Source of the DNA: Clostridia bacterium
Lineage (GTDB): Bacteria > Bacillota > Clostridia > TANB77 > CAG-508
Assembly (NCBI GenBank): GCA_017510245.1
Contig: JAFWNQ010000013.1
Span: 82,720 to 146,719 of the forward strand
Direction: 5' to 3'
DNA length: 64,000 bases
Positions 8,023 through 48,982 of this stretch are shown piece by piece; position 1 is the first letter of the stretch; the number at the start of each line of letters is the position of its first letter. The notes under the pieces are model-generated. The model did no database searches, was not told the origin of the DNA, and saw only the letters and a program-made list of their open reading frames with translations. Made by a program: the position numbers and the translations under genes.

Positions 8023-8655
8023 ATGAAATATAATAGATTAATTTTTTCTACAAAAAATCAAGGAAAATTAGAGCAGGTAAGGAATTTACTAATAATTAAT
8101 AATGTAGAAGGTATAGATATTATCTCAGAAAAAGATGTTGGATTTTTAGACGAAGTAATAGAAGATGGAAAAACTTTTGAAGAAAACTCAGAAAAAAAAG
8201 CAAGAACATTATATAATTATTGTATTGAAAACAATATTAATTTAGACAATACAGTAATTTTTGCAGATGATTCAGGTTTGTGCATTGATAAATTGGATGG
8301 AGCACCAGGAATTTATTCTGCTAGGTTTGCTGGAGAAGGTGCTACTGATGATGAAAAAAGAGAAGAAATAATGAATGTTATGAAAGAGTATGAAACTACA
8401 GAAGATAGATCTGCTAGTTTTGTAACTGTGATGACTGGAATACTACCTAATGGAGAAAAAATAGTTTCAAGGGGTGAATGCAAAGGAAGTGTAACAAAGG
8501 AGATTGGAAAAACATTTAGTAAGTTAACATACAATCCAATATTTGTACCAGCAGGATTTGAGAAGCCAATATCAGAAATGAATGAAGAAGAGTTTAAACT
8601 TGTTCCTCACCATAGAGAGATGGCTTTAATGGGGTTAATAAGACAGATATTATAA
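8023..8655 (+). CDS. rdgB: non-canonical purine NTP pyrophosphatase, bacterial RdgB/Ham1 type
   Basis: STKNQGKLEQ and FADDSGLCIDKLDGAPGIYSARFAG motifs. Confidence 0.85.
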   Translation: MKYNRLIFSTKNQGKLEQVRNLLIINNVEGIDIISEKDVGFLDEVIEDGKTFEENSEKKARTLYNYCIENNINLDNTVIFADDSGLCIDKLDGAPGIYSARFAGEGATDDEKREEIMNVMKEYETTEDRSASFVTVMTGILPNGEKIVSRGECKGSVTKEIGKTFSKLTYNPIFVPAGFEKPISEMNEEEFKLVPHHREMALMGLIRQIL

Positions 8656-22400: not shown

Positions 22401-22546
22401 TATATCAGAATTTAATACATACTGGACAAACACCTGGAGTACCAACAAGTGCTGGATGTATACATTTAGCTGGAAGCTATCAAGCAAAAATATACTATAG
22501 ACTATTTGTGGAAGCTGGAGTAGGAACTAGATTTATACTATTCTAA
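19496..22546 (+). CDS. large secreted surface protein: signal peptide + dockerin-type repeats + 7 Big_2 Ig-like repeats + C-terminal YkuD-like (L,D-transpeptidase fold) domain
   Basis: Dockerin EF-hand-like pair GDINKDEKIDSIDLLYMMRHI and ADITQNGIVNSSDLLVILRYIA. Repeated ..ATVDKNGKITAKGNGTA.I.A.. Ig modules. C-terminal HTGQTPGVPTSAGCIHL catalytic-type motif. Confidence 0.85.
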   Translation: MKNHIIRNILLMIIIVSAILVQNCVFGANELILGDINKDEKIDSIDLLYMMRHIVAENDGNHKEWILEDEKYKLADITQNGIVNSSDLLVILRYIAANNNPEEIGKKHKEWLEVKEIESQESREENNILKSEDDIEKENTSKNTIEITNTIEVSNEIIETNSSKIEPDLVNNTEIEKTKSEVKAINLNKSVIEIEKGTTEQIIATIEPKELNNEKIEWKIANTQIAEVDETGKITAKKNGDTLLTARTTNGKEAVSKVRVGTYPKSIEINKEIVKMDLSGKRTEKVEVIVKPDDASNKEVKVDNKNERVATIDGEGKITAKENGETELTFKTANGIEKKLKVKVETSATGVKLDKNYIQLDLSKNKQSTIKATIEPGTTSNKGITYKSSNAAIATVDKNGKITAKGNGTANIIARTANGKEAVCKVEVQTVATKINMDKKVSIDLSKNTEKKIKVEVKPDSATNKSVMIRSDNEAVATIDSSGTIKAKKNGTATITAQIAGTDIVETCKVTVTTSPTGLKMSKTNVKLDMSGTKSIKITAEVQPSTASNKKIKWTNGNSNIVYMSASGKTATITGLKNGEATIIAEIEGTNIKKTIKVTVTTSPTKITLNKTSETLDMSGAKTVQLKAKVEPSTAENKTVTWSSDNTKVATVDKNGKVTGKNEGIATITAKTHNGKKDTFKITINSTKISLDRTILMIDNTHYNIADLQANLSSTAIYKGDDITWTISNSSVAKFNKDGKKYSTIKGSAKVQIVGLSFGTAKITVKIPNGKTATCNLKVITSSKEQSNGDRSYYFSKGHGINNNMFYLRSGTWGNEYVEAYVDNIAKIVKKYQDTKFKDEAAAKKLYCYEQKSMSIITNNNTITNVSGKGYPYTTSVTPYNNGDFRKIIKNKAKGEITPNDYILLFTSKNQWAYLLKRNKKGNWKVVSANQSSGGYERDQFERYLCIKWIRSGIGLSLTDVIYSETASVYQNLIHTGQTPGVPTSAGCIHLAGSYQAKIYYRLFVEAGVGTRFILF
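20039..21835 (+). repeat. seven tandem ~80-codon Big_2-type coding repeats
   Basis: Periodic protein repeats are visible in the translation. This repetitiveness also produces the long spurious antisense ORFs. Confidence 0.8.
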
Positions 22547-26545: not shown

Positions 26546-28813
26546 ATGAAGGTAGTAAAAAGAGATGGAAAAATCATTGATTTTGATTCAGAAAGAATCA
26601 GAGTTGCTATCAATAAAGCAAACAAAGAAGTTGATGATGATGAAAGAGCAAATGAAGAAGAAATCGAAGAAATTGTTAATTTCGTAAAGAAAATTAGAAA
26701 AAGAAGAATTCTAGTTGAAGACATTCAAGACATTATCGAAAACAAATTAATGGATATGCAAAAACATAATTTAGCTAGAGCATATATAACATATCGCTAT
26801 AATAGAGCTTTAGTTAGAAAAGCTAATACAACAGATCAAACCATTAAAGAGTTAATAGATGGAACAAGTGAATATTGGAATAGTGAAAACTCAAATAAAA
26901 ATGCTAAAATAGTTACAACACAGAGAGACTATTTGGCTGGAATTACTAGCACTGATATTACAAGAAGATTTTTATTAGATCCAGACATAGTTAAAGCACA
27001 TGATGAAGGAATTATTCATTTCCATGATGCAGACTATTTTGCTCAAAATGCTCTTCACAACTGTGACTTGGTAAATTTAGATGATATGCTTCAAAATGGA
27101 ACAAACATTAATGGTGTTCAAATTGATAAACCACATAGATTTCTAACTGCAATGACTATAGCTACTCAAATAATTACAGCAGTTAATTCAAGTCAATACG
27201 GAGGAGTTACAGTTACAATGACTCATTTAGCTCCATTTGTAAGAGATAGTTATAATAAATATTATAAGAAATATGAAGAAAGAAAACTTTCTAAAAAAGA
27301 CTGTGAAAAATATGCTAAAGAAGATTTAAAGAAAGAAGTAGAAGATGGAGTTCAAACATTCCAATATCAAATTAATTCAATGACAACTACTAATGGACAA
27401 GCTCCTTTCTTAAGTGTTTGCCTATATTTAGGTGAAACAGATGAATACAAAGAAGAATTAGCAATGATAATAGAAGAAATGTTAAAACAACGTATAGTTG
27501 GAATGAAAAATGAAAAGGGAGTTTTCATTACACCAGCATTTCCTAAATTATTATATGTTTTAGAAGAAGACAACATCCATAAAGATAGCAAGTATTATTA
27601 TCTAACAGAATTAGCAGCTAAATGTACTGCAAAGAGAATGGTTCCAGACTATATTTCTGAAAAAATGATGCTACAATTAAAGATAAATGAAAATGGAGAA
27701 GGTGATTGCTACCCATGTATGGGATGTAGATCTTTCTTAACACCAGATAGAACAATGAGTCTTGGAAACATTGCAAAAGCAAAGAACTATGTTGAGGGTA
27801 AACCAAAATACTATGGAAGATTTAATCAAGGAGTTGTTACAATCAACTTACCAGATGTTGCTTTATCATCAAGAAGAGATATGGATGAGTTCTGGAAAAT
27901 ATTTGATGAAAGACTTGAACTTTGTCATAGAGCTTTACAAGCAAGAAATGAAAGACTTGAAAGTGCAACAAGTGATTGTGCACCAATACTATGGCAAAAT
28001 GGAGCATTAGCAAGACTTGATAAGGGTGAATCACTTCATGAATTATTACATCATGGATATTCAACAATATCATTAGGTTTTGCAGGACTATATGAATGTG
28101 TAAAATATATGACAGGACATAGTCATACTGATGGAGCAGAAGGAGAAAAATTTGGATTAGAAGTAATGCAACATCTTAATGATAAATGTAAAGAATGGAA
28201 AGCTGCAGAAGATATTGATTATAGTGTATATGGAACACCAATAGAATCAACAACTTATAAATTTGCAAAATGTTTAAAACAAAGATTTGGAACTGTTGAA
28301 GGAGTTACAGATAGAGATTATATTACAAACTCTTATCATGTTCCTGTATTTGAGGAAATAGATGCATTTGAAAAACTAGCACTAGAAAGTAAATTCCAAA
28401 AGCTATCACCAGGTGGTGCTATAAGCTATGTAGAAACACCAAATTTACAAAACAATTTAGATGTTGTTGAACAATTAATACAATTTATTTATGACAATAT
28501 AATGTATGCTGAATTAAATACAAAATCAGATTATTGCCAACAATGTGGATTTGATGGAGAAATATTAATTGATGAAAACTTAGATTGGTATTGCCCAAAC
28601 TGCGGAAACAAAGACCATAGAACATTAAATGTTGCTAGAAGAACTTGTGGATATATTGGAACAAACTTCTGGAACAAAGGAAGAACTCAAGAGATAAAAG
28701 AAAGGGTTTTACATATTGATAATAAAGATTCAGAGCATTGTTGCTCAAAAGAACATGAAAAAGAAAAAGCTACTAAAAAAGAGAATGTAATGGAACAAGT
28801 TAGAATGTACTAA
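26546..28813 (+). CDS. nrdD: anaerobic ribonucleoside-triphosphate reductase
   Basis: ATP-cone N-terminus, Zn ribbon CQQCG..CPNCG, glycyl-radical motif RRTCGYIG. Confidence 0.95.
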   Translation: MKVVKRDGKIIDFDSERIRVAINKANKEVDDDERANEEEIEEIVNFVKKIRKRRILVEDIQDIIENKLMDMQKHNLARAYITYRYNRALVRKANTTDQTIKELIDGTSEYWNSENSNKNAKIVTTQRDYLAGITSTDITRRFLLDPDIVKAHDEGIIHFHDADYFAQNALHNCDLVNLDDMLQNGTNINGVQIDKPHRFLTAMTIATQIITAVNSSQYGGVTVTMTHLAPFVRDSYNKYYKKYEERKLSKKDCEKYAKEDLKKEVEDGVQTFQYQINSMTTTNGQAPFLSVCLYLGETDEYKEELAMIIEEMLKQRIVGMKNEKGVFITPAFPKLLYVLEEDNIHKDSKYYYLTELAAKCTAKRMVPDYISEKMMLQLKINENGEGDCYPCMGCRSFLTPDRTMSLGNIAKAKNYVEGKPKYYGRFNQGVVTINLPDVALSSRRDMDEFWKIFDERLELCHRALQARNERLESATSDCAPILWQNGALARLDKGESLHELLHHGYSTISLGFAGLYECVKYMTGHSHTDGAEGEKFGLEVMQHLNDKCKEWKAAEDIDYSVYGTPIESTTYKFAKCLKQRFGTVEGVTDRDYITNSYHVPVFEEIDAFEKLALESKFQKLSPGGAISYVETPNLQNNLDVVEQLIQFIYDNIMYAELNTKSDYCQQCGFDGEILIDENLDWYCPNCGNKDHRTLNVARRTCGYIGTNFWNKGRTQEIKERVLHIDNKDSEHCCSKEHEKEKATKKENVMEQVRMY

Positions 28814-28881
28814 ACTTAAGAAAAGATTGCTAAATAAGCTATGCTACATTTGGCAATCTTTTTCTTTACTATAAAAAGGAG

Positions 28882-29379
28882 ATGGAAATGAGATACAATA
28901 AAATAAGAAAAATGGATATTTCAAATGGACCAGGTGTTAGAGTTTCAATTTTTTTGCAGGGATGTGCTTTTCACTGCGAAGGTTGTTTTAATCCTGAAAC
29001 ATGGGATTTTGAGGCTGGAGAAGAATTTACAGAAGAAACTGTGGATGAAGTGATGGAACTTTGTGGAAAGAGTCACATAAAGGGATTGTCAATATTGGGT
29101 GGTGAACCAATGCATCCTTCTAATATAAAAGCAACAGAAATGCTTGCTAAAAGGTTTAAAAAAATGTACCCAGATAAAAATCTATGGGGATGGTCAGGAT
29201 ATACTTTTGAGGATTATTTAAGTAAACAAGATGTAATTAAATACTTTGACGTAATAGTAGATGGACAATTTGATATTAAACTAAGAAACCCTAAATTAGA
29301 ATGGAAGGGATCAGAAAATCAAAGAGTAATAGATGTTCAAAAAAGTTTAAAAAATGGGAAAGTAGAAATATTAGAATAA
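28882..29379 (+). CDS. nrdG: anaerobic ribonucleotide reductase activating protein
   Basis: 165 aa; NGPGVRVSIFLQGCAFHCEGCFN radical-SAM cluster motif; follows nrdD. Confidence 0.9.
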   Translation: MEMRYNKIRKMDISNGPGVRVSIFLQGCAFHCEGCFNPETWDFEAGEEFTEETVDEVMELCGKSHIKGLSILGGEPMHPSNIKATEMLAKRFKKMYPDKNLWGWSGYTFEDYLSKQDVIKYFDVIVDGQFDIKLRNPKLEWKGSENQRVIDVQKSLKNGKVEILE

Positions 29380-39640: not shown

Positions 39641-39716
39641 GCCAATATAGCTCAGTTGGTAGAGCAACGGATTCGTAACCCGTAGGTCAGCAGTTCGATT
39701 CTGCTTATTGGCTCCA
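39641..39716 (+). tRNA. tRNA-Thr (anticodon CGT)
   Basis: GCCAATA / GCTC-AGTTGGTA-GAGC / ACGGA-TTCGTAA-CCCGT / AGCAG-TTCGATT-CTGCT / TATTGGC-T-CCA. Confidence 0.9.
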
Positions 39717-39723
39717 AATTTAT

Positions 39724-39797
39724 GCAGATGTAGTTCATCGGTAGAATGTGGCCTTCCCAAGGCTAAGAGGTGGGTTCGATTCCCATCATCTGCTCCA
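39724..39797 (+). tRNA. tRNA-Gly (anticodon CCC), copy 1
   Basis: GCAGATG / TGGCC-TTCCCAA-GGCTA / GTGGG-TTCGATT-CCCAT / CATCTGC-T-CCA. The U73 discriminator is typical of Gly. Confidence 0.9.
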
Positions 39798-39811
39798 TAA
39801 GAAAATATTCG

Positions 39812-39841
39812 AACTCTAGTGTAATTGCTAGAGTTTTTTTA
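39812..39841 (+). terminator. terminator of the tRNA pair
   Basis: AACTCTAG pairs with CTAGAGTT, followed by a T run. Confidence 0.7.
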
Positions 39842-39920
39842 TTAGTTTGTTGAAAAACTAAATACTGAAAAGATATATAAATAATATTATACTTGTAAAA
39901 TATACCCCCATAACAAACTC

Positions 39921-39965
39921 CAAAAAAATATTGCAATTTTTAAAAATTTTTGTAATAATAGAAAT
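39921..39965 (+). promoter_or_regulatory. cassette promoter block P1
   Basis: caaaaaaatattgcaatttttaaaaatttttgtaataatagaaat. TTGCAA, 17 nt, TGt-AATAAT. Repeated at 42570 and 45957. Confidence 0.6.
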
Positions 39966-40105
39966 CGAAGATATTTATTAAGAGTTTTATTTTAATATTT
40001 TAAATAGTAAAAATGAGTATTTAAAGCTAATAAATGTTACAAAAGAAATCTATTCTAAAAATATGGAATAGTCAAATGAACTAATGAAAGGGGAAGTTTA
40101 TATTT

Positions 40106-41666
40106 ATGAAAAATTTTGAGAAAAAAGAGATCAAAACTAGTAAAGGTATTACTTTGATAGCCCTTGTTGTTACTATAATAGTTCTTTTAGTTTTAGCTGG
40201 AATATCAATTAATATAGCAATGGGAAGTAATGGATTAATACAACGAGCCAGAGATTCTAAAATTGAAAATGAAAAAGGGCGAGAAAAGGAAATTATTGCA
40301 TTTGCTTATGATTCTGCATTAATTAAAAAAACAAGTAATGGTGATTCAACAGCTGTAACAGTAGAAGATTTAAATATTGAATTAGCAAATCAAGGAGCAA
40401 CAGCTGATGGAAGTAGCCCAATTAAAGTTACATTTACAGCATCTAAACGACAATATAATATAAATAATGGAATAGTAGATTATGCTGGAATAAAAACGGA
40501 TAATCCAGCGGGAGATGGACTAGAAGGCTTATCTAGTGCAGAAGTAGCATTACTTCCAACAGGAGTTACAGAAAAAGCAATAGAAAAAATATCAAATGAT
40601 AACTTAAAAGATGCTACGAAAATAAAAGCTGTAATTACAGATAGTGATAATGGAGAAGTACCAATTCCAAAAGGTGCTAGTTATAAAGAAGGAAGTGAAT
40701 CATCAGGCGTAGTAATTGAATATAAAGGAAGTCAATTTGTATGGGTTCCAATAGATGGTAATTTAACAGTAAAAGGAACTAACAAATTAATGGCAAAAGA
40801 ATCAACAGGAGATTATGCAGGAACAACTAATGGACTAACTAATTATGATGGAATGCTATATGATTTTGTAAATATAAATTCTACATTTGATCCAAGGACA
40901 GGACCATCAACTACCATTACAGTGTTAGATGAACCTCAGCCTATATCAAGAACTCAAAGCGAAAATTATAGTGCATGGTCAATAGAACCTGATTTATTAG
41001 AATCGTATGATACGGACGATCTAGATAAAATAAAAACGGAATTTTACTATAAAACGGGTGATGCAAGCGTAGAAAATTTAACACAGACATATATAGAATC
41101 AATAGGATATTCAACAACTACTCTCTGGAAAAACGAATTACAAGGTAGTTATAATGCTATGATAGACAGTGTAAAAAAGTATGGTGGATTCTATGTTGGA
41201 AGATATGAAAGTAGTATAAGTGGAACAACAGTAGCATCAATATCAGGTGTAACACCAATGAGCAATATAAATTGGTATCAAATGTATAAAAAACAAAAAG
41301 ATTTTTCAGGAAATGGAACAGATACTTTACAGTCAAATATGATATGGGGAAGCCAATATGATGCTATGCTTAATTGGATGTTAACGGGTTCAGATGCAGA
41401 AAAGATAAATTTATCATCAAATGATAATACTAGCACAACAAATACTGGAGCAACAGAAACAGATATACTAAATAATATATATGATTTAAAAGGCAATTAC
41501 ATTGAATTTACAGCGGAAGCAAGAAATAGTGGTGCTACGGCTACCCCAACAATGAGGAGTGTTAGACGGCAAAAATTATGCTCTTGCTGGATATCGTGAC
41601 TGTTTGGAACCTGATTACAATGGTTATAGTGATTGTTCATCTAGGATGGCATTGTATATTAATTGA
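40106..41666 (+). pseudogene. cassette gene 1: pseudopilin-like leader + FGE-sulfatase/C-type-lectin-like ectodomain, +1 frameshift near the 3' end
   Basis: SKGITLIALVVTIIVLLVLAGISI leader; GGFYVGRYE ... NNIYDLKGNYIEFT blocks. The track ORF ends at 41599. A second frame (41556-41666) encodes ..YALAGYRDCLEPDYNGYSDCSSRMALYIN, homologous to the remnant at 42240-42461. Confidence 0.7.
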
Positions 41667-41701
41667 ATATTCACTAAAAAAGATAGTGTAAAATAAATTG
41701 C

Positions 41702-41745
41702 AGGGTATTAAGAGATTTTTAATACCCTCAACTATTGTTTTTATC
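41702..41745 (+). terminator. probable terminator of cassette gene 1
   Basis: AGGGTATTAA pairs with TTAATACCCT. The downstream T run is weak. Confidence 0.5.
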
Positions 41746-42095
41746 ATTTATTATAAAAAAAATTAAAAATTACACACTATTGACAAAGTCGTTTAATCTC
41801 GTTATAGAAAAGTTTCTTCTACCTACCTGCTATTTTTCAAAATCCCATTCTTTTTCTCTATCTTCTCTTTTCACTTGCTTTTCAACATCTTACAAAATAT
41901 AGCTTTCTCTTTCAAAATCTATAACTAAATTTTTTCATCTGTAATATCAAATTAATTTTACAAACTTAAAATTTTCCTTGACAAAACAATAATAATTATG
42001 TTAAGCTGAAAGCAATAAATCGAGTTATATAAGAGATCTTGAAACAAAGTATGTCATTTTTTCGCATACCTGTTTCAAAATCGCTCCAATTTTAT

Positions 42096-42169
42096 GCAGA
42101 TGTAGTTCATCGGTAGAATGTGGCCTTCCCAAGGCTAAGAGGTGGGTTCGATTCCTATCATCTGCTCCA
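42096..42169 (+). tRNA. tRNA-Gly (anticodon CCC), copy 2 (one T-stem C-to-T change giving a G-U pair)
   Basis: Identical to copy 1 except for 1 nt within the tRNA. The duplication also includes GCTCCAA.TTTA upstream. Confidence 0.8.
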
Positions 42170-42171
42170 AA

Positions 42172-42461
42172 AGAAAGAACTCAAGAAACTCGGAGAGAAA
42201 CTTGTAGGGAAACTCGGGGACGTCCATCAAAATTCCCATGAAGCAATAAAAACTGGAGAATATGAGCAAACAAAATCAAATAATATATATGATTTAGCGG
42301 GAAATTTAGCAGAATGGACTACAGAATCTTGTAATGACACATTAAGGACTTTAAGAGGATCTGAATTTGGTGAAGGTGGATATGGTGTTGATAATCGTGC
42401 TGAAGAACAAACTTCTTATGATGGAGATATTACAGGTTTTCGACTTGCATTATATTTGTAA
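42172..42461 (+). pseudogene. orphan 3' remnant of an FGE/C-type-lectin-like cassette gene
   Basis: ..SNNIYDLAGNLAEWTTESCNDTLRTLRGSEFGEGGYGVDNRAEEQTSYDGDITGFRLALYL aligns with the C-terminus of gene 1. There is no leader, promoter or RBS. The track ORF start lies inside the tRNA. Confidence 0.6.
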
Positions 42462-42569
42462 TTCAGAAATAGATTAGTATATAGAGATGGGAATACCATC
42501 TCTTATTATTGTAAATATAACTCATTTTCTTTATCCCAAAGTCCAATTAAGTAATTCCTAAATAATAGT

Positions 42570-42614
42570 CAAAAAACTATTGCATTTTTATAAAACTTTT
42601 GTAATAATAGAAAA
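42570..42614 (+). promoter_or_regulatory. cassette promoter block P2
   Basis: caaaaaactattgcatttttataaaacttttgtaataatagaaaa. TTGCAT, 17 nt, TGt-AATAAT. Confidence 0.6.
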
Positions 42615-42748
42615 TGAATATATATTAATAGCTTAGTTTAAATATCCCAAATACAAAAATTAGTAATTAAAAACAATAAATATTACTTAAGAAGTATTCT
42701 ACGAAAATACTAAATACTAAAATGTACTAAAGAAAGGAAAAAATTACT

Positions 42749-44095
42749 ATGAAAAATATATTTATAAATGTTCAAAAATCAAGTAAAGGTATCACTCTGA
42801 TAGCCATGGTTGTTACAATAATAGTTTTACTAATCTTAGCAGGAATAAGTATTACAATGACTATAGGGGAAAATGGATTAATAACAAAAGCAGGAGGAGG
42901 ATCAAAGAGTATAAAATATGCAACATATAAAGAAGAAGTAGACTTATATTTTCAAGGTGAATTCACAAAAAGCAAAGGTAATAGTGACGCTTATAATGTA
43001 TCTATAACAGATAAAACAAAATTAAAAGAAATAATGCCAAAAGCTACAGATACAGATTTAGATAAACTATTAATTCAAAATGGAAAACTAGTATATGATC
43101 CAGAAAAAGTTGACAATTCAGAAAAAGAATTAATGGAAAGGATAGGAATATTATCAATGACTCTTAGAGCTACGATAGTATTTATAGTAAATGGACAAGA
43201 GTATGCTAGAATACAATCTGATAAAATAGAATTTCCAGAGCTTATACCAGAATCAACTTCTGATGGATATACTTTTATAGGCTGGTATTATGATCAAGAA
43301 GCTATCTATCCTTTTATTAATAGAGCAGATATCCTAAACAATATTTCTGGAGGATATATGGATGCGTCAGTACATGAACAAAACAAAGCATATGAGGGTG
43401 ATGATATTGATGAAAATGAAATAACTCTTTATGCAACTTTTAGAGGAAATTCAGCTCTAAATACTTGTTTAGCTAAAGGAACCAAGGTTACACTTGCAGA
43501 TAAATCAAAAAAGAATATAGAAGATATAACTTATGAAGATAGATTACTTGTATGGAATTTTGATGAAGGAAAAATTGATAATGCAGAGCCGGTATGGATT
43601 ATGAAGAAAGAACAAGCAAATAAATATTTGCAATTTAAATTTGAAAATGGTATGGAATTAAAACTTACTATACATAGAATATTTAATGTTGATAAGCAAA
43701 TATTCGCAAATGCAGATATGGATGAAGAAATGCCAATTGGAACAACAGTATTTTTAGAAGATGGAACAACAACAAAATTAATTGAAAAGAATGAAATAGA
43801 AGAAGTTATAGATGTTTATAATGTTATGACAAAAGAGCATATTAATCTATTTGCAGAAGGAATTTTAACATCATTAAGATTTAATGAACTATACGATATT
43901 AAAAATATGAAATTTATAAAAGATAATAGGGAACTAAATGAAAGAGAAAAATATGAAAATATACCAGATAACTATTTCTATGGTTTAAGACTTGCAGAAC
44001 AAAAAAATACCTTAACAGAAGATGGTAATATTTGGTGGGAAGATAGAGTAATCAATGTATTAATGAAGAATGAAAGATATTCAAATGCTAGCTAA
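42749..44095 (+). CDS. cassette gene 2: pseudopilin-like leader + Listeria-Bacteroides-type B-repeat + Hint (hedgehog/intein-like) module + 73-aa tail
   Basis: SSKGITLIAMVVTIIVLLILAGISI; GYTFIGWYYDQ..ITLYATF; C240-LAKGTKVTLADKSKKNIEDITYEDRLLVW ... VIDVYNVMTKEHINLFAEGILTS. Confidence 0.8.
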   Translation: MKNIFINVQKSSKGITLIAMVVTIIVLLILAGISITMTIGENGLITKAGGGSKSIKYATYKEEVDLYFQGEFTKSKGNSDAYNVSITDKTKLKEIMPKATDTDLDKLLIQNGKLVYDPEKVDNSEKELMERIGILSMTLRATIVFIVNGQEYARIQSDKIEFPELIPESTSDGYTFIGWYYDQEAIYPFINRADILNNISGGYMDASVHEQNKAYEGDDIDENEITLYATFRGNSALNTCLAKGTKVTLADKSKKNIEDITYEDRLLVWNFDEGKIDNAEPVWIMKKEQANKYLQFKFENGMELKLTIHRIFNVDKQIFANADMDEEMPIGTTVFLEDGTTTKLIEKNEIEEVIDVYNVMTKEHINLFAEGILTSLRFNELYDIKNMKFIKDNRELNEREKYENIPDNYFYGLRLAEQKNTLTEDGNIWWEDRVINVLMKNERYSNAS

Positions 44096-44135
44096 AAAAG
44101 CATTTATAAACAAAAAGTATATGTAGGAGAAAACT

Positions 44136-44909
44136 GTGAATGTAAAAGAAAATCTTAGAATTTCAATTACATCATTATGTAATATGCAATGCAGATATTG
44201 CCATAATGAGGGAAACATTGAAGAATCAATACTCACAAAAAATCAAATAAAAAAGATTATTGATAGCTTAGATGGACATGAAATTGCATCAGTAAGACTT
44301 ACTGGAGGTGAGCCACTTATATCTCCAGAAATTGAAGATATATGTGAATTGCTAGCCATACAATATGGAATAAATGTTGAAATAAATACTAATGGTATAG
44401 AGATAGATAAACTTTTAAAATTAATCAATAGAGGCTGGGTAAAAGGGGTAGTAATTGGAATTGATTTATTTGATGCAGATATATCAAAAAGTTCGCCAAT
44501 TGGACAAAGCTCAAAAACTATAAAAGAAAATATTTTAAGAATTAAACAAACTGATTGCAATGTATATATTGATATGGTATACAATGGGGATAATAATAAT
44601 GCTGAAAAAATGATTAGATGGGCTATTAATAACGACATTGAAATAAGAATTCTTGAGATGGTAAGTAGACACATTGATAAATTATATGTTAAAAAGTTTA
44701 ATGAGTTACAAAGTATAATTTCAAATAAAATTGAACTTAATTGGTATATTGATAGAGAATTACACGAATTAAAAGGAACTATGAATGGAAAAACTTTAGT
44801 AATATTTTATAATTCATTATGCAGATTACAATTATGCAACTTGTGCAAAAAAATACAAATTAGAATTACAAGCAATGGTACTTTTAGACCATGTATAATG
44901 AACTTTTAA
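44136..44909 (+). CDS. MoaA-family radical SAM protein lacking the MoaA C-terminal tail
   Basis: GTG start 6 nt after AGGAG. LRISITSLCNMQCRYCHNEG, VRLTGGEPL, NTNG, IEIRILEM, CNLCKKIQIRITSNGTFRPCI. The ORF ends 4 codons later. Confidence 0.85.
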   Translation: MNVKENLRISITSLCNMQCRYCHNEGNIEESILTKNQIKKIIDSLDGHEIASVRLTGGEPLISPEIEDICELLAIQYGINVEINTNGIEIDKLLKLINRGWVKGVVIGIDLFDADISKSSPIGQSSKTIKENILRIKQTDCNVYIDMVYNGDNNNAEKMIRWAINNDIEIRILEMVSRHIDKLYVKKFNELQSIISNKIELNWYIDRELHELKGTMNGKTLVIFYNSLCRLQLCNLCKKIQIRITSNGTFRPCIMNF

Positions 44910-44912
44910 GAA

Positions 44913-44930
44913 CTTAGGGACGTCCCTAAG
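44913..44930. terminator. GC-rich 18-bp perfect palindrome / hairpin after the radical SAM gene
   Basis: CTTAGGGACGTCCCTAAG; the downstream region is T-rich. Confidence 0.5.
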
Positions 44931-44961
44931 TCTAAAAGTCTAAGTTTTTCTGGTAAAAATG

Positions 44962-44990
44962 TTGTGGTCTACATAATTTCGTGATATAAT
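44962..44990 (+). promoter_or_regulatory. promoter of GC-rich module D
   Basis: TTGTGG, 17 nt, TGa-TATAAT (44985-44990). Confidence 0.5.
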
Positions 44991-45109: not shown

Positions 45110-45853
45110 GTGAAGAAGAGCATTGGTTTTCTGATAATAATAATCTGCATGTTTGCTATTTTAGGGGTTACAGCATGTGGATCAACTGCACAGGTTGAGA
45201 AAGAATCTGAAAACAGTCAAGAAGATTCACCGACCTGGGTGACAGAACTTGCAGAGGCAGAGAATGCAGAGCAGGTATTTGTGATAGCAGGTGTGGGAGA
45301 CACAACTGCTTACGTCTCAATGCATGAACGCACTTCTGATGGAAATTGGAAGACGATTATGACCACGCCTGGATATATTGGCAAAAAAGGTCTAGGTAAG
45401 ACGAAAGAAGGAGACGCAAAGACTCCGGTTGGTACATATCACTTTACTAGAGCTTTTGGAATTGCTCCAGATCCTGGATGCACTGATTTCGACTACAAAC
45501 AAGTAAGTGATGACGATTGGTGGTCAGGAGATTCAAACTACCATTATAACGAGATGGTAGATATTAAGGATTATCCGGAACTTAGCCAAGATGACAGTGA
45601 GCATATAGTCGATTATACTTATCAATACCAGTATTGCTTGAACATTAGCTATAACGAAGATGGTGAGGCGGGAAAGGGCTCTGCAATTTTCTTGCATTGC
45701 TTTGGTCCTTATAAACCTTATACTGGTGGGTGTGTTTCGATTCCTAGAGCTGAAATGGAAACGGTTTTGAAAAACGTCAGAAAGGATTGTATTGTAATTA
45801 TCGATTCTCTTGAAAATCTCAGTCCTGAAACATGGGAGGAATGGGATTTGTAG
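45110..45853 (+). CDS. lipoprotein with L,D-transpeptidase-like (YkuD-fold) domain (GC-rich module D)
   Basis: Lipobox ILGVTAC; GKGSAIFLHCFGPYKPYTGGCVSIP catalytic-type motif. GTG start after AAGGAG. 47% G+C in a hand-counted 100-nt sample. Confidence 0.85.
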   Translation: MKKSIGFLIIIICMFAILGVTACGSTAQVEKESENSQEDSPTWVTELAEAENAEQVFVIAGVGDTTAYVSMHERTSDGNWKTIMTTPGYIGKKGLGKTKEGDAKTPVGTYHFTRAFGIAPDPGCTDFDYKQVSDDDWWSGDSNYHYNEMVDIKDYPELSQDDSEHIVDYTYQYQYCLNISYNEDGEAGKGSAIFLHCFGPYKPYTGGCVSIPRAEMETVLKNVRKDCIVIIDSLENLSPETWEEWDL

Positions 45854-45865
45854 GATATCACTTAG

Positions 45866-45965
45866 TCGTTAAGCATTTTTACCGAGAAGTAGGAGCTATA
45901 TTTAGCTCCCACTTCTCGGTATTTATATTATATAATAAGACAAATATTGTAACTTCAAAAAAACT
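45866..45965. repeat. ~98-nt direct repeat, copy A (contains the terminator hairpin)
   Basis: tcgttaagcatttttaccgagaagtaggagctatatttagctcccacttctcggtatttatattatataataagacaaatattgtaacttcaaaaaaacta. Confidence 0.9.
45881..45920 (+). terminator. intrinsic terminator of module D
   Basis: ACCGAGAAGTAGGAGCT pairs with AGCTCCCACTTCTCGGT (one mismatch), followed by T-rich sequence. Confidence 0.75.
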
Positions 45966-46001
45966 ATTGCAATTATTATAGATTTTTGTAATAATAGAAA
46001 T
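45957..46001 (+). promoter_or_regulatory. cassette promoter block P3
   Basis: caaaaaaactattgcaattattatagatttttgtaataatagaaat. TTGCAA, 17 nt, TGt-AATAAT. Confidence 0.6.
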
Positions 46002-46073
46002 TGAAAAAGTATATTAAGATTTTTGAACGATTGAATATGACAAGCAAAAGTATAAAAAATGGAGAATCTGTAA

Positions 46074-47349
46074 ATGAAAAACTTAAGAAAAAATAAAGAA
46101 TTAGGAATAACATTAATAGCATTAGTTGTAACAATTATTGTAATACTAATTTTAGCAGGTGTAACAATTAGTATGGCTTTAGGAAGTGAAGGACTGATTC
46201 AAAGAACAAAAGATGTTAGTACTAAAACAGAAATAGCAAAAGAAAAAGAAATATTAGGTTTAGCAGTAAGTGGAGCAATGACTAATAAATATGGAGAAAT
46301 AGATGAAGATGCTTTTATAACCGAGTTAGAAAATAATAATGCTAGAGCTATTAAAATGGGCAGTAAGTATAAAGTAACATTTCCAAGTGAAAGACAATAT
46401 ATAGTTAATCAATCAGGAAATGTTAAAGAAAAGAATTCAAATGTACTAGAAATTGAAGAATTAAATGAAAATGGTAGTACATATTTTGGATGGGATGTAA
46501 TAAACTATGCTGAAACATTACCATCAAATCTGCAAGATACAAAATGGCAATTGTTTTATGCAGGAGCATTAGACGGAGAAACAGAAGAAAGGATTTATTT
46601 AATTTCAAAAGAATATGTAAAGAATTCTGTATTGCCAGCTGTAATAAAAAATGGGGCTGAAATAGAGACGGCAAAACCTATTTCAGGAAACAATGAATAT
46701 AAAGCCTGCTTTGGAAACAACACAAGTGATGGGATAATGCCACATTATGTAGGATCTGCTGATATATCAACTGAGATTAAAAAATACAATAAAGACTATT
46801 TTAAAGATTATACAAGTGCATCTCCAAATATGAAAGCTGTAGCATATATGCTAGATACTACTACATGGAGTGCATTTGCAACAAGTACGAAAAGCTATGC
46901 AGAATATGCAATGGGTGGACCATCTATAGAATTATTTCTTATAGCTTATAATAAATATTCAGGGACAAATTATAAATCAGATGCAGTATCAAACAAGGGA
47001 TACCAAGTAAGTGAAACTCCTAGTAGTACTTTTAATAATTCGATGACTATGGGGATAATTCCAGATGTCACAACTGGAGAAAAGCTAGAAGATAATCCTT
47101 TTTCTGTATCAAGTATAAGAGATGTAGCCGATGGATATTGGCTAGCTTCTCCATCAAATGCAAATTCAAATATTATAATGTTTATAACGAACAGAGGAGA
47201 TATTTTTACTTTTTTAAATTGGTATAATCGAGAATATAGTTATGCAGGATTCCGGATTTCGTCCTATAGTTCTATTAGATTCAAACTTTTCATTAGAAAA
47301 GGCAAAAGATTCAAATGGAAATGATGCATTTAAAATTGTAAATCTGTAA
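46074..47349 (+). pseudogene. cassette gene 3: pseudopilin-like leader + YWLASPS...GFRPIV-type ectodomain, frameshift near the 3' end
   Basis: ELGITLIALVVTIIVILILAGVTI leader. The track ORF ends at 47324. A second frame (47218-47349) reads ..DSGFRPIVLLDSNFSLEKAKDSNGNDAFKIVNL. A quasi-duplicated heptamer GGATTCC/GGATTTC sits at 47247-47260. Confidence 0.7.
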
Positions 47350-47440
47350 AAATATTATAAGAATTATTCTATAAAACCTATAATTGTAATACTGTTAATA
47401 GAATCTTTTTGGCAATAATTAAAGTACATATAGCACTAAA

Positions 47441-47539
47441 TCGTTAAGCATTTTTACCGAGAAGTGGGAGCTATATTTAGCTTCCACTTCTCGGTATTTA
47501 TATTATATAATAAGACATATATTGTAACTTCAAAAACTA
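47441..47539. repeat. ~98-nt direct repeat, copy B
   Basis: Same as 45866-45965 with 3 substitutions and a 2-nt difference in the A run. Similarity ends where copy A runs into promoter block P3. Confidence 0.9.
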
Positions 47540-48391: not shown

Positions 48392-48982
48392 ATGGAAAAT
48401 GAAATAGTATTTGTGACACATAATAAAGGAAAAATAAAATCAGCTGAGAAGTATTTCAAAAATTTGAAGTTTAAAACATTTAATTATGAATTAGATGAAC
48501 CAAGAAGTGATGATATTAAAGAAATAGCGACAGCTAAAGTTAAGCAAGCATATGAAATAGTGAAAAGACCGTGTATTGCATTAGATACAGATTTTAGAAT
48601 AGATGCTCTTAATGGATTTCCAAGAGCTTTCGTAAATTTTGCATTAGACACCATTGGTATAGAAGGAATTTTAAAATTAATGAAAAATGTAGAAAACAGA
48701 GAATGTGCTTTTAATGAGTGTCTAGCTTACCATGATGGTAAAGAAATACACTATTTTTATGGAAGGCATCCTGGAATAGTATCAAGCTCAATAAAAGGGT
48801 GTGATAGGGTAGAAAAGTGGTCAGACTTGTGGTACATATTTGAACCTAAAGGATTTGAGAAAACTCTGGCTGAGATGAGCAATGATGAAAGAGAAGGAAG
48901 AAGAAAAGTAGATGGCTCAGTTCAGGCGATGAAAGAATTCGCAATTTGGTATGAAGGAGAAAAAAATGGAAAGAAATGCTGA
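48392..48982 (+). CDS. Ham1-family NTP pyrophosphatase, ITPA (archaeal/eukaryotic)-like paralog
   Basis: VFVTHNKGKIKSAE and ALDTDFRIDALNGFPRAFVNF. This resembles the ITPA-type EDT.L.F.AL.G.PG block rather than the RdgB DDSGL block. Confidence 0.75.
   Translation: MENEIVFVTHNKGKIKSAEKYFKNLKFKTFNYELDEPRSDDIKEIATAKVKQAYEIVKRPCIALDTDFRIDALNGFPRAFVNFALDTIGIEGILKLMKNVENRECAFNECLAYHDGKEIHYFYGRHPGIVSSSIKGCDRVEKWSDLWYIFEPKGFEKTLAEMSNDEREGRRKVDGSVQAMKEFAIWYEGEKNGKKC

What the first reader, a model, noticed from the sequence alone, without database searches (positions are those of the whole stretch)
44136..44909. Orphan MoaA-family radical SAM enzyme missing the catalytic C-terminal tail, apparently co-transcribed with the Hint gene
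Block-by-block resemblance to MoaA: LRISITSLCNMQCRYC, VRLTGGEPL, NTNG, IEIRILEM, and the second-cluster region CNLCKKIQIRITSNGTFRPCI. The comparison is to E. coli MoaA as I recall it. The ORF stops 4 codons after that last Cys, so the ~60-70-residue C-terminal segment is absent. In MoaA that segment ends in Gly-Gly and is needed for GTP 3',8-cyclisation. No moaB/C/D/E, mogA or moeA gene is in the window. The gene starts 40 nt after cassette gene 2 with no terminator between, and it lies inside the segment bounded by the GGGACGTCC cores. A nucleotide-acting radical SAM enzyme in a variable island recalls viperin-like chemistry. It could equally modify the neighbouring protein or its tail. Both ideas are speculation.
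Basis: partly seen in the sequence, partly recalled or inferred. Interest (0 to 1): 0.65.

Follow-up and report, generated by a model that had tools for sequence, protein, structure and literature searches.

The report
Orphan short MoaA-like radical SAM gene
This is a real, intact gene for a radical SAM enzyme that resembles the molybdenum-cofactor enzyme MoaA but belongs to a small uncharacterised clade that probably modifies a nucleotide, and here it sits alone behind a secreted Hint-domain protein gene.

Summary
The ORF at 44136-44909 (257 aa) is real, and MoaA is its closest known relative by sequence and by predicted fold. It is not MoaA. It scores 112 bits against a 284-bit equivalog cut-off, has no Mob_synth_C hit, and has no Gly-Gly tail.

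It belongs to a rare clade (about 35 clusters at 50% identity among 1.84 billion). The clade has a conserved four-Cys motif and never a GG tail. Elsewhere its members sit in small cassettes with nucleotide-handling enzymes (nucleotidyltransferase, NUDIX, HIT, kinases, an HD hydrolase, a mobile ArgRS).

The window copy has none of these partners. It lacks about 30 residues of the clade's own tail, yet keeps all 61 clade-conserved residues, has a good RBS, and ends in a terminator hairpin whose apex is the 'GGGACGTCC core'. Two or three other members are similarly short.

Hint or pseudopilin genes lie near the rSAM in the three other genomes of its subclade. Three other Hint-pseudopilin loci examined lack it.

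Best reading: a functional, stand-alone, probably nucleotide-acting enzyme, probably co-transcribed with the Hint gene. A role in modifying that protein is unproven, and gene decay is not excluded.

The parts
42568..42637 (+). Conserved promoter-like element upstream of the Hint-pseudopilin gene. It is one of three copies; one stands before each pseudopilin-leader gene.
   Evidence: Direct-repeat family D2 at 39919, 42568 and 45955, 73-84% identity. TTGCAA-17-AATAAT matches were reported for the copies at 39931 and 45967; near this copy the scan found TTGTAA-16-TATATT at 42599.
42749..44095 (+). Upstream gene, 448 aa. It has a prepilin-type N-terminal leader, a List_Bact_rpt-like repeat, a Hint domain (from Cys240) and a conserved ~75-aa tail.
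   Evidence: Weak Pfam hits to N_methyl, Flg_new, Hint and Hom_end_hint, and NCBIfam intein_Nterm. More than 2000 homologues were found.
44125..44129 (+). Shine-Dalgarno AGGAG, 6 nt before the GTG start of the rSAM gene.
   Evidence: Read directly from the sequence.
44136..44909 (+). Radical SAM gene, 257 aa. MoaA-like two-cluster ('twitch') enzyme of an uncharacterised clade, in a short-tail form.
44178..44201 (+). Codons for C15-X3-C19-X2-C22, the radical SAM [4Fe-4S] motif (CNMQCRYC).
   Evidence: Aligns to C24/C28/C31 of S. aureus MoaA. Conserved in 98-99 of 100 clade members.
44820..44894 (+). Codons for the auxiliary-cluster region C229-X4-C234-X2-C237-X15-C253. It includes K238, K239 and R243.
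   Evidence: C234/C237/C253 align to MoaA C261/C264/C278, and R243 to R268. C229 is conserved in 98 of 100 members and aligns to Val256 in MoaA.
44902..44949 (+). Terminator-like hairpin (44902-44939) that overlaps the TAA stop, followed by a T-run at 44945-44949. The palindromic GGGACGTCC at 44917-44926 is its apex.
   Evidence: RNA fold gives -16.5 kcal/mol, z = -2.8.
42217..42225 (+). Second GGGACGTCC copy, 48 nt after the duplicated tRNA-Gly and at the head of a 3' fragment of a pseudopilin/FGE-like gene. Its significance is unknown.
   Evidence: The motif is absent from related loci.
42096..42169 (+). Second copy of tRNA-Gly(CCC); the first is at 39724-39797. It marks the left edge of the segment that holds the Hint and rSAM genes.
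   Evidence: ARAGORN. The 94-nt repeat D4 is 97% identical between copies. Run X6 carries a deletion joint between the two copies.

Best explanation
The ORF is an intact, probably expressed gene for a two-cluster radical SAM enzyme. It belongs to a small uncharacterised clade whose nearest known relative is MoaA, but it is neither MoaA nor part of molybdenum-cofactor synthesis.

Inferred mechanism:
- The N-terminal CX3CX2C [4Fe-4S] cluster binds and reductively cleaves SAM to the 5'-deoxyadenosyl radical.
- That radical abstracts a hydrogen from a substrate held next to a C-terminal auxiliary cluster (C229/C234/C237/C253).
- The substrate is most likely a nucleoside triphosphate or a similar nucleotide. 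Most of the MoaA residues I recall as nucleotide-binding are kept (two Arg exactly, two as Lys or Lys/Arg), and relatives sit in cassettes with a nucleotidyltransferase, NUDIX or HIT hydrolases, kinases or an HD hydrolase.
- The chemistry is probably not the MoaA cyclisation. The GG tail is absent from the whole clade, several MoaA active-site residues differ, and a fourth conserved Cys may fully ligate the auxiliary cluster.

In this genome the gene is a stand-alone copy. It is the second cistron of a unit that reads promoter, Hint-pseudopilin gene, rSAM gene, hairpin terminator. That unit lies in a variable island next to a duplicated tRNA-Gly. The copy has lost the clade's last ~30 residues, which appear dispensable.

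Shown: gene integrity, family placement, failure of the MoaA tests, neighbourhoods, operon-like anatomy. Inferred: substrate class, activity of the short form, co-transcription.
For: Family placement:
- Radical_SAM 77 bits plus Fer4_12.
- MoaA equivalogs are the best hits but far below cut-off: 112 against 284 bits.
- MoaA is the best solved structure by sequence and by fold, TM 0.78.

The clade:
- Homologues at 38-60% identity, typically 285-297 aa.
- Only about 35 representatives score above 175 bits among 1.84 billion.

Neighbourhoods of relatives:
- [ArgRS]-DUF1919-rSAM-APH-HIT on a mobilisable element.
- Nucleotidyltransferase-rSAM-NUDIX, sometimes with a P-loop kinase.
- YcaO...-rSAM-NUDIX.
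- SecA-rSAM-HD.

Conserved residues, mapped to S. aureus MoaA through and counted:
- R17 to R8 (98/100).
- R71 to R54 (99/100).
- R192 to R/K171 (99/100).
- R266 to K239 (K or R in 74/100).
- R268 to R243 (100/100).
- 2FB2 is the R17/R266/R268 to Ala triple mutant.

Integrity of the window copy:
- 0 deviations at 61 positions that are at least 85% conserved in 100 members.
- AGGAG box and a terminator hairpin at the stop.
- Short tails also in P0016 (3 aa), P0017 (11 aa) and P0055 (7 aa).

Precedent: a small rSAM + kinase + NTPase cluster makes the nucleoside 4'-thiothymidine (PMC12691670).
Against: - No nucleotide-enzyme partner (NTase, NUDIX, HIT, APH, DUF1919) is present anywhere in the 64-kb window.
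- The tail found in its two closest relatives (P0012, P0005) is missing, with no remnant downstream. Loss of activity is therefore possible.
- MoaA N124, S126 and K163 are replaced by V, G and Y.
- The fourth Cys could block MoaA-style binding of the substrate to an open Fe site. An NTP substrate is an inference from partial conservation and context only.
- One context type (YcaO plus a C39-like peptidase) would also fit peptide chemistry.
- The recurrent proximity to Hint or pseudopilin genes is not explained by this reading.
- No transcript or biochemical data exist.
Confidence: 0.55

Rival explanations
1. The enzyme is a dedicated partner of the pseudopilin-leader/Hint proteins. It modifies the neighbouring secreted protein (or its conserved tail), or attaches a nucleotide-derived group to it, so the two genes form a functional pair.
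For: - The two genes are 40 nt apart with no terminator between them, and one terminator follows the rSAM.
- All four members of the subclade with usable context lie near Hint or pseudopilin genes although gene order differs:
  - window: Hint then rSAM;
  - L095: rSAM, 212 nt, then Hint-pseudopilin (51% identical to the window's);
  - L092: rSAM, 33 nt, then two pseudopilin/FGE-like genes, with the Hint-pseudopilin 6.8 kb upstream;
  - L149: Hint-pseudopilin 4 kb upstream.
- The window has no SecA or alkaline phosphatase homologue of the kind that separates them elsewhere.
- Only three pseudopilin-leader genes occur in 64 kb, all in this island.
- The peptide maturases SuiB and SkfB are the next-best fold matches, TM 0.66-0.70.
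Against: - The Hint-plus-tail module occurs in more than 2000 proteins.
- Three other full-length Hint-pseudopilin loci (L145/146, L147/148, L150/151) have SecA next door but no such rSAM within 8 kb.
- The other roughly 40 clade loci carry no Hint or pseudopilin gene.
- In L095 the Hint gene has its own promoter-like site after the rSAM.
- No RRE-like N-terminal domain is present, and there is no Cys in the Hint protein's tail.
- Sequence similarity to peptide maturases is weak, 28-45 bits against 112 for MoaA.
- The linkage can be explained as inherited synteny (Hint-pseudopilin, [AlkP], SecA, rSAM) in one lineage.
Confidence: 0.13
2. The gene is a decaying, non-functional remnant of a nucleotide-modifying cassette (such as DUF1919-rSAM-APH-HIT). 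It lost its partners and its 3' end in a recombination-prone island.
For: - Its nearest large group of relatives (55-57% identity) is in the five-gene mobile cassette.
- No partner gene is in the window.
- About 30 C-terminal residues are missing relative to its closest relatives, with no trace downstream.
- The island holds other damaged genes: a 3' gene fragment at 42230-42461 and apparent 3' frameshifts in both other pseudopilin genes.
- The island shows deletion variants in populations.
- A gene with 41% G+C follows immediately.
Against: - All 61 clade-conserved residues are intact.
- The 257-codon frame is open in 26% G+C DNA.
- The RBS is good, and a terminator is placed exactly at the stop.
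- Short-tail forms recur on separate branches of the clade tree: P0016 and P0017, and perhaps P0055, which is known only from a 2.9x-coverage contig.
- Lone copies at 50-60% identity persist in at least four divergent genomes. That argues for long-term purifying selection without linked partners.
Confidence: 0.17
3. It is a viperin-like defence enzyme that converts an NTP into a chain-terminating analogue against phages.
For: - PADLOC pVip models hit at 56-57 bits.
- Viperins are among the fold matches, TM 0.6-0.7.
- It lies in a variable island.
- Some relatives sit next to kinases.
Against: - NCBIfam viperin_w_prok gives 47.9 bits against a 180-bit cut-off, and the match covers only the N-terminal rSAM core, residues 11-148.
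- From the literature as I recall it, viperins have no auxiliary cluster. This clade has four conserved C-terminal Cys.
- Many nucleotidyltransferase-rSAM-NUDIX loci sit in a conserved gene order across genomes (c12, c3-c9, NTase, rSAM, NUDIX, c10, c11), which is unlike a defence island.
- No other defence gene was recognised beside the window copy.
Confidence: 0.07
4. It is the genome's genuine MoaA (GTP 3',8-cyclase) in a reduced form.
For: MoaA is the top hit by sequence and by fold. One public source labels three of the listed relatives (P0010, P0024, P0095) as 'cyclic pyranopterin phosphate synthase'.
Against: - It scores well under half of every MoaA equivalog cut-off (112 against 284, 103 against 325, 99 against 231).
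- There is no Mob_synth_C hit and no GG tail in any of 100 clade members.
- No Moco gene is in the window or in any Pfam-annotated relative's locus.
- MoaA N124, S126 and K163 are not conserved.
Confidence: 0.02

Closest known systems
MoaA, GTP 3',8-cyclase (S. aureus MoaA, PDB 1TV7/1TV8/2FB3; NCBIfam TIGR02666, TIGR02668, NF001199)
   Same: - N-terminal CX3CX2C radical SAM cluster.
- Partial TIM barrel.
- C-terminal auxiliary-cluster Cys triad at the equivalent place (C234/C237/C253 for C261/C264/C278).
- Conserved equivalents of R17, R71, R192 and R268.
- Best sequence match (84.6 to 112 bits) and best fold match (TM 0.78).
   Different: - Fails all three equivalog cut-offs.
- No Mob_synth_C hit.
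- No C-terminal GG tail, either here or in any of 100 clade members.
- CX2CX15C spacing instead of CX2CX13C.
- An extra conserved Cys (C229).
- N124, S126 and K163 are replaced.
- Never seen next to Moco genes; its neighbours are nucleotidyltransferase, NUDIX, HIT and kinase genes.
Nucleotide-modifying radical SAM enzymes of small nucleoside-antibiotic clusters: AbmM (albomycin, PDB 8WM2), and ThmA of thmA-thmB-thmC (4'-thiothymidine)
   Same: - AbmM matches the clade profile at 68 bits over the N-terminal half and is a fold match, TM 0.61.
- The thm cluster is rSAM plus nucleoside kinase plus NTPase, with the NTPase giving self-resistance (PMC12691670). That parallels the NTase-rSAM-NUDIX(-kinase) and rSAM-APH-HIT cassettes of this clade.
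- From memory: the albomycin cluster carries a resistant seryl-tRNA synthetase. That would parallel the mobile ArgRS in cassette A.
   Different: - Similarity to AbmM is limited to the rSAM core.
- No product is known for this clade.
- The window copy has no kinase or hydrolase partner.
Viperin and prokaryotic viperins (pVip)
   Same: Radical SAM enzymes that act on NTPs. There are weak profile hits (PADLOC pVip 57 bits) and fold similarity, TM 0.6-0.7.
   Different: - Far below the viperin_w_prok cut-off: 47.9 against 180 bits.
- Viperins have one cluster (from the literature as I recall it), whereas this clade has a conserved four-Cys C-terminal motif.
- The match covers the N-terminal core only.
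Twitch/SPASM radical SAM peptide maturases (SkfB 6EFN, SuiB 5V1Q)
   Same: Radical SAM core plus a C-terminal auxiliary-cluster domain. Fold matches at TM 0.66-0.70. A fully Cys-ligated auxiliary cluster is possible here, as in many of these enzymes.
   Different: - No N-terminal peptide-recognition (RRE) domain.
- Sequence scores are only 28-45 bits.
- No precursor-peptide gene was recognised.
- Most clade contexts are nucleotide enzymes.

Membership tests
Radical SAM superfamily | CX3CX2C motif and a match to the Radical_SAM domain above Pfam's threshold | tested here: met
   C15-X3-C19-X2-C22 is present. PF04055 scores 77.1 bits against a 29.5-bit cut-off, and Fer4_12 34.8 against 22.
MoaA (GTP 3',8-cyclase) | Score at or above the curated equivalog cut-off | tested here: not met
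   TIGR02666 112.3 against 284; TIGR02668 103.3 against 325; NF001199 98.7 against 231. Full-length clade members also fail, at 117-126 bits.
MoaA (GTP 3',8-cyclase) | Mob_synth_C domain (PF06463) | tested here: not met
   No hit at E <= 0.01. Precomputed Pfam shows PF06463 in only 2 of about 100 clade members but in the true MoaAs further down the list.
MoaA (GTP 3',8-cyclase) | Auxiliary [4Fe-4S] cluster bound by three Cys (CX2CX13C) | tested here: inconclusive
   C234-X2-C237-X15-C253 aligns to C261/C264/C278. The spacing differs, and a fourth Cys (C229, 98/100) is conserved. Cluster content was not measured.
MoaA (GTP 3',8-cyclase) | C-terminal Gly-Gly tail, required for activity according to the literature as I recall it | tested here: not met
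   The protein ends ...RPCIMNF. 0 of 100 clade members end in GG or have GG in the last 12 residues. The bacterial-type MoaA hits P0106 and P0119 end in IGG.
MoaA (GTP 3',8-cyclase) | GTP-binding residues R17, R266 and R268 (mutated in PDB 2FB2), and N124, K163 and R192 (these three from my recollection of the S. aureus MoaA literature) | tested here: inconclusive
   R8, K239, R243 and R171 are kept. N124, S126 and K163 become V106, G108 and Y144.
MoaA (GTP 3',8-cyclase) | Genomic company of Moco genes (moaB, moaC, moaD, moaE, mogA, moeA) and Moco enzymes | tested here: not met
   None in the 64-kb window. None in the Pfam-annotated loci of relatives. A whole-genome inventory was not possible.
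Viperin / pVip | Score at or above the viperin_w_prok cut-off, with full-length similarity | tested here: not met
   47.9 bits against 180, residues 11-148 only. PADLOC pVip gives 56-57 bits over the core only.
SPASM/twitch peptide maturases (RiPP) | Match to a maturase equivalog, an RRE domain, and an adjacent precursor peptide | tested here: not met
   The best maturase models score 28-45 bits against cut-offs of 300-650. The protein starts 7 residues before the core strand, so there is no room for an RRE. No precursor-like small ORF was examined in detail.
Uncharacterised MoaA-like clade (this work: P0001-P0104) | At least 38% identity over the full core, the motif C-X4-C-X2-C-X15-C, the ISK.SP.G.SS block, and no GG tail | tested here: met
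   E-values of 1e-42 to 1e-95 to clade members. All 61 conserved positions are present. The Cys motif is conserved.
Uncharacterised MoaA-like clade (this work) | An adjacent nucleotide-handling partner (nucleotidyltransferase, NUDIX, HIT, APH or P-loop kinase, HD) | tested here: not met
   No homologue of any partner is in the window. L092 and L095 of the same subclade also lack them, while L149 has an HD hydrolase.

The most novel reading that the evidence does not exclude
The MoaA-like enzyme has been recruited as a working partner of secreted pseudopilin-leader/Hint proteins. It would modify the protein directly, or make a nucleotide-derived group that ends up on it. That would explain why the two kinds of gene stay close in four divergent genomes despite shuffled order. 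It would be a new kind of radical SAM-dependent modification of type-IV-pilin-like secreted proteins.
Probability: 0.1. Interest if true: 0.75.

Novelty: new variant of a known kind. Interest (0 to 1): 0.45.

Why it matters
MoaA-like enzymes outside Moco synthesis are poorly charted. This clade is rare, is mostly seen in gut Clostridia and Bacilli in this sample, has no curated family, and carries a distinct four-Cys motif. Its steady company of nucleotidyltransferase, NUDIX, HIT and kinase genes points to an unknown radical reaction on a nucleotide.

One version travels on a mobilisable element together with a complete extra arginyl-tRNA synthetase, and its rSAM is recorded in 330 blocks of the contig index. 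That looks like a nucleoside-type antimetabolite or resistance module, though this is speculation.

The window copy itself matters less. It shows that the enzyme can persist alone and without the clade's C-terminal tail. It also raises a testable, still weak, link to secreted Hint-pseudopilin proteins.

For annotation, the practical point is that such genes should not be called cyclic pyranopterin phosphate synthase or MoaA.

Tried and rejected
- Remnant of the missing tail: tblastn of 11 relatives' last 60 residues, and three-frame reading downstream of the stop, found nothing. Read-through gives unrelated sequence.
- GGGACGTCC as a shared recombination core: it is absent from all related loci. 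The copy next to the gene is the apex of a hairpin.
- Transcript evidence: no RNA run holds the region, so co-transcription is untested.
- Strain variants with a full-length gene: contigs from four gut metagenome runs showed cassette deletions elsewhere in the island but the same rSAM 3' junction.
- Partner genes elsewhere in the window (APH, HIT, DUF1919, NUDIX, NTase, SecA, AlkP, HD): none.
- Defence-system membership: only weak pVip core hits for the rSAM, and weak hits to candidate systems PDC-S07 and PDC-S09 for the NUDIX and NTase partners.
- Literature: searches for MoaA-like rSAM with Nudix, MoaA in anti-phage defence, and DUF1919 found no description of this clade or of its cassettes.
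- Organism identity: the GTDB representative scan found no copy above 57% identity. The source species, or at least this island, is therefore not in that set.
- dN/dS was not attempted, because relatives are only 50-60% identical and synonymous sites would be saturated.
Full report
**1. The observation**

The ORF 44136-44909 (+) exists.
- It starts with GTG, 6 nt after an AGGAG box.
- It encodes 257 residues and begins exactly 40 nt after the stop of the upstream 448-aa gene.
- No terminator-like site lies between the two genes.

Pfam finds Radical_SAM (77 bits) and Fer4_12 but no Mob_synth_C. In NCBIfam the three MoaA equivalogs are the top hits but fall far below their cut-offs: 112 against 284, 103 against 325, and 99 against 231 bits. 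Residues 5-255 cover positions 10-279 of the 336-position bacterial model.

A profile of the clade finds S. aureus MoaA as the best solved structure, at 84.6 bits. An AlphaFold model (pLDDT 91.6) matches MoaA best, with TM 0.78. The protein ends four residues after the last auxiliary-cluster Cys.

So is the statement that no Moco gene is in the window. The annotated genes include nrdDG, the suf genes, FtsH, tRNA synthetases, ribosomal proteins, YkuD transpeptidases and P-type ATPases.

**2. The protein family**

A search of 5.8 billion proteins found about 100 clusters at 38-60% identity, nearly all 285-297 aa long. True MoaAs appear only below 32% identity. A profile search of 1.84 billion representatives shows how small the clade is: about 35 representatives score above 175 bits, and below that begins the continuum of MoaA-like proteins.

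Features that define the clade:
- a four-Cys motif, C229-X4-C234-X2-C237-X15-C253, conserved in 98-100 of 100 members;
- an ISK.SP.G.SS block;
- no Gly-Gly tail in any of 100 members, whereas bacterial-type MoaAs in the same hit list end in IGG.

I mapped residues to S. aureus MoaA through the alignment.
- The radical SAM Cys triad and the three auxiliary Cys are in place.
- The equivalents of R17, R71, R192, R266 and R268 are kept: Arg at R8, R54 and R243, Lys or Arg at position 171, and usually Lys at 239. PDB 2FB2 is the R17/R266/R268 to Ala mutant.
- N124, S126 and K163 are replaced.
- C229 aligns to Val256 of MoaA.

Full-length clade members also fail the MoaA equivalogs, at 117-126 bits. 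So 'missing the catalytic tail' is first of all a property of the clade. This is not a truncated MoaA.

**3. The local truncation**

Within the clade the median tail after the last Cys is 33 residues. Here it is 4. The two closest relatives, P0012 and P0005 (59-60% identity), have full tails. No remnant of a tail is encoded downstream in any frame.

Several facts argue that the gene still works:
- It deviates at none of the 61 positions that are at least 85% conserved among 100 members.
- Its stop codon lies inside the left arm of a strong hairpin (44902-44939, -16.5 kcal/mol, z = -2.8) that is followed by a T-run. The gene therefore has a proper end.
- Tails of 3 aa (P0016), 11 aa (P0017) and 7 aa (P0055) occur in other members, and P0016 and P0017 sit on separate branches of the NJ tree. 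The P0055 contig has only 2.9x coverage, so that case is weak.

I conclude that the tail is probably dispensable. Decay cannot be excluded.

**4. Neighbourhoods of relatives**

I examined about 45 distinct loci from GTDB genomes and metagenomes. Four context types stand out:
- **Type A.** [ArgRS]-DUF1919-rSAM-APH-HIT. The ArgRS is bona fide (414 bits against a 262-bit cut-off). The cassette often sits directly beside a serine recombinase, Mob_Pre and TnpV. Its rSAM (P0010) is recorded in 330 blocks of the contig index; the loci read came from gut metagenome assemblies. These rSAMs are 55-57% identical to the window's.
- **Type B.** The most common type: Pol-beta-type nucleotidyltransferase-rSAM-NUDIX, sometimes with a P-loop kinase.
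- **Type C.** C39-like peptidase, a small protein, YcaO, a 320-aa protein with a nucleotidyltransferase-like hG[GS]...DxD motif (my reading), then rSAM and often NUDIX.
- **Scattered types.** APH next to the rSAM, HIT-rSAM, and a second rSAM with a pyruvate-kinase-like protein.

The common theme is enzymes that make or break nucleotide phosphate bonds. None of these loci carries a Moco gene where Pfam labels were available.

A published three-gene cluster is a functional precedent. It consists of an rSAM, a nucleoside kinase and an NTPase (the NTPase gives self-resistance), and it makes 4'-thiothymidine (PMC12691670). AbmM, which swaps sulfur for oxygen in building albomycin's thiofuranose core (per PMC12691670), is also among the sequence and fold matches.

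**5. The window's subclade and the Hint question**

The window protein groups with P0012, P0005, P0016 and P0017. None of these has the NTase, NUDIX, APH or HIT partners. Their contexts are as follows:
- **L095:** AlkP-SecA-rSAM, then 212 nt, then a Hint-pseudopilin 51% identical to the window's, then a pseudopilin/FGE-like gene.
- **L092/L101:** Hint-pseudopilin, AlkP, SecA, MBOAT and a 430-aa gene, then the rSAM, then 33 nt, then two pseudopilin/FGE-like genes.
- **L149/L096:** Hint-pseudopilin, AlkP, SecA, rSAM, then an HD/HD_assoc hydrolase.

Against a functional tie:
- The Hint-plus-tail module occurs in more than 2000 proteins.
- Three other full-length Hint-pseudopilin loci pair with SecA and have no such rSAM.
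- In L095 the Hint gene has its own promoter-like site.

The simplest reading is an ancestral neighbourhood (Hint-pseudopilin, [AlkP], SecA, rSAM) that was rearranged in the window's lineage. The window has no SecA or AlkP homologue of that kind. I give the functional-pair idea about 0.1-0.15.

**6. Anatomy of the island**

- tRNA-Thr and tRNA-Gly(CCC) at 39641-39797 are followed by a pseudopilin/FGE-like gene (40106-41599).
- Next comes a second, 97%-identical copy of tRNA-Gly (42096-42169).
- Then follow a 3' fragment of another pseudopilin/FGE-like gene, the Hint-pseudopilin, the rSAM, a YkuD gene with 41% G+C (neighbours have 26-32%), a third pseudopilin gene (46074-47324), and housekeeping genes.
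- Each pseudopilin gene is preceded by the same 70-nt promoter-like element.
- The first cassette is bracketed by the tRNA-Gly repeat and the third by a 107-nt repeat that carries a terminator.
- Deletion joints across both repeats exist in gut metagenome runs.
- The rSAM 3' junction is the same in all contigs seen.
- The second GGGACGTCC (42217) lies 48 nt past the tRNA copy. The motif is absent from related loci, so I attach no mechanism to it.

**7. Mechanism and verdict**

Shown:
- The gene is intact and carries translation and termination signals.
- It belongs to a distinct MoaA-like clade and fails every MoaA-defining test that could be run.
- It has no Moco neighbours, while its clade has nucleotide-enzyme neighbours.
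- The Hint linkage is confined to one lineage.

Inferred:
- SAM is cleaved at the N-terminal cluster.
- The 5'-deoxyadenosyl radical abstracts a hydrogen from a nucleotide-type substrate held by the conserved basic residues beside the auxiliary cluster.
- The reaction differs from GTP 3',8-cyclisation.
- The short form is active.
- The gene is co-transcribed with the Hint gene.

Rivals are a protein-modifying partner of the Hint-pseudopilin, a decaying remnant, a viperin-like defence enzyme, and a true MoaA. Only the first two keep appreciable weight.

The gene is best filed as a new variant within the MoaA-like radical SAM enzymes. Interest is moderate: higher for the clade and its mobile ArgRS cassette than for this lone copy.

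Noticed in passing
L001-L006, L098-L106 (e.g. L001:5509-10587); also L013, L014, L105: A five-gene cassette, ArgRS-DUF1919-rSAM-APH-HIT, often sits beside a serine recombinase, Mob_Pre and TnpV. The ArgRS is full length (414 bits against a 262-bit cut-off). The rSAM (P0010) is recorded in 330 blocks of the contig index; the loci read came from gut metagenome assemblies. It looks like a mobile nucleoside-type antimetabolite or resistance module. I found no description of it in the literature searched.
   Followed up: partly
window 39711-39804 and 42083-42176: tRNA-Gly(CCC) is duplicated (94-nt repeat, 97% identity) around the first pseudopilin cassette. A contig in run X6 joins 39718 to 42091, so a variant without that cassette exists.
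   Followed up: partly
window 45855-45961 and 47430-47536: A 107-nt direct repeat (94% identity) carries a 19-bp terminator hairpin and brackets the third pseudopilin cassette. A contig in run X10 joins 45908 to 47484, which is a deletion variant.
   Followed up: partly
window 41540-41665 and 47240-47290: Both pseudopilin/FGE-like genes seem frameshifted near their 3' ends. The family-typical endings (...SSRMALYIN*, ...GFRPIVLL...) are in another frame. At 47247-47260 two near-identical 7-mers (GGATTCC and GGATTTC) stand side by side at the shift, which may be a small duplication. This could be pseudogenisation or phase variation.
   Followed up: partly
window 42120-42461: The 113-aa 'ORF' is not a gene. 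Its 5' part is the tRNA-Gly copy, and its 3' part (from about 42230) is a leftover C-terminal fragment of a pseudopilin/FGE-like gene with its own terminator at 42483-42503.
   Followed up: partly
window 45110-45853: This YkuD (L,D-transpeptidase) gene has 41% G+C, against 26-32% for its neighbours, and a possible promoter of its own that I read by eye (TTGTGG, 17 nt, TATAAT, about 44962-44990; not in the scan listing). It was probably acquired recently. One metagenome contig (L153) ends about 167 nt upstream of it, near the rSAM terminator.
   Followed up: partly
window 39919-39988, 42568-42637, 45955-46024: A conserved 70-nt element with a TTGCAA/TTGTAA-type promoter-like site lies upstream of each of the three pseudopilin-leader genes. 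These are the only three such genes in the 64 kb.
   Followed up: partly
L145-L151, L149, L092: Full-length Hint-pseudopilin genes lie immediately upstream of SecA, sometimes with an alkaline phosphatase gene between them, in five of the six related loci examined. That suggests a link between this secreted protein and the Sec machinery. In L092 and L149 the SecA gene is split into two ORFs, and in L092 the AlkP gene is also in pieces; this could be pseudogenes or assembly errors.
   Followed up: no
window 8023-8655 and 48392-48982: There are two Ham1/RdgB-type NTP pyrophosphatase genes. One is canonical (146 bits). The other is divergent (86 bits), overlaps the start of a P-type ATPase gene, and lies 3.5 kb downstream of the rSAM. 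I found no evidence that links it to the rSAM.
   Followed up: no
L016, L021, L022, L024, L110, L113, L125: In one branch of the clade the rSAM follows a C39-like peptidase, a ~110-aa protein, a YcaO enzyme and a 320-aa nucleotidyltransferase-like protein, and is often followed by NUDIX. This is an unusual mix of peptide-type and nucleotide-type enzymes.
   Followed up: no
window 19496-22546: A 1016-aa protein has Dockerin_1 and several Big_2/Ig-like domains. Together with nrdDG at 26546-29379, this fits an anaerobic gut member of the Clostridia.
   Followed up: no
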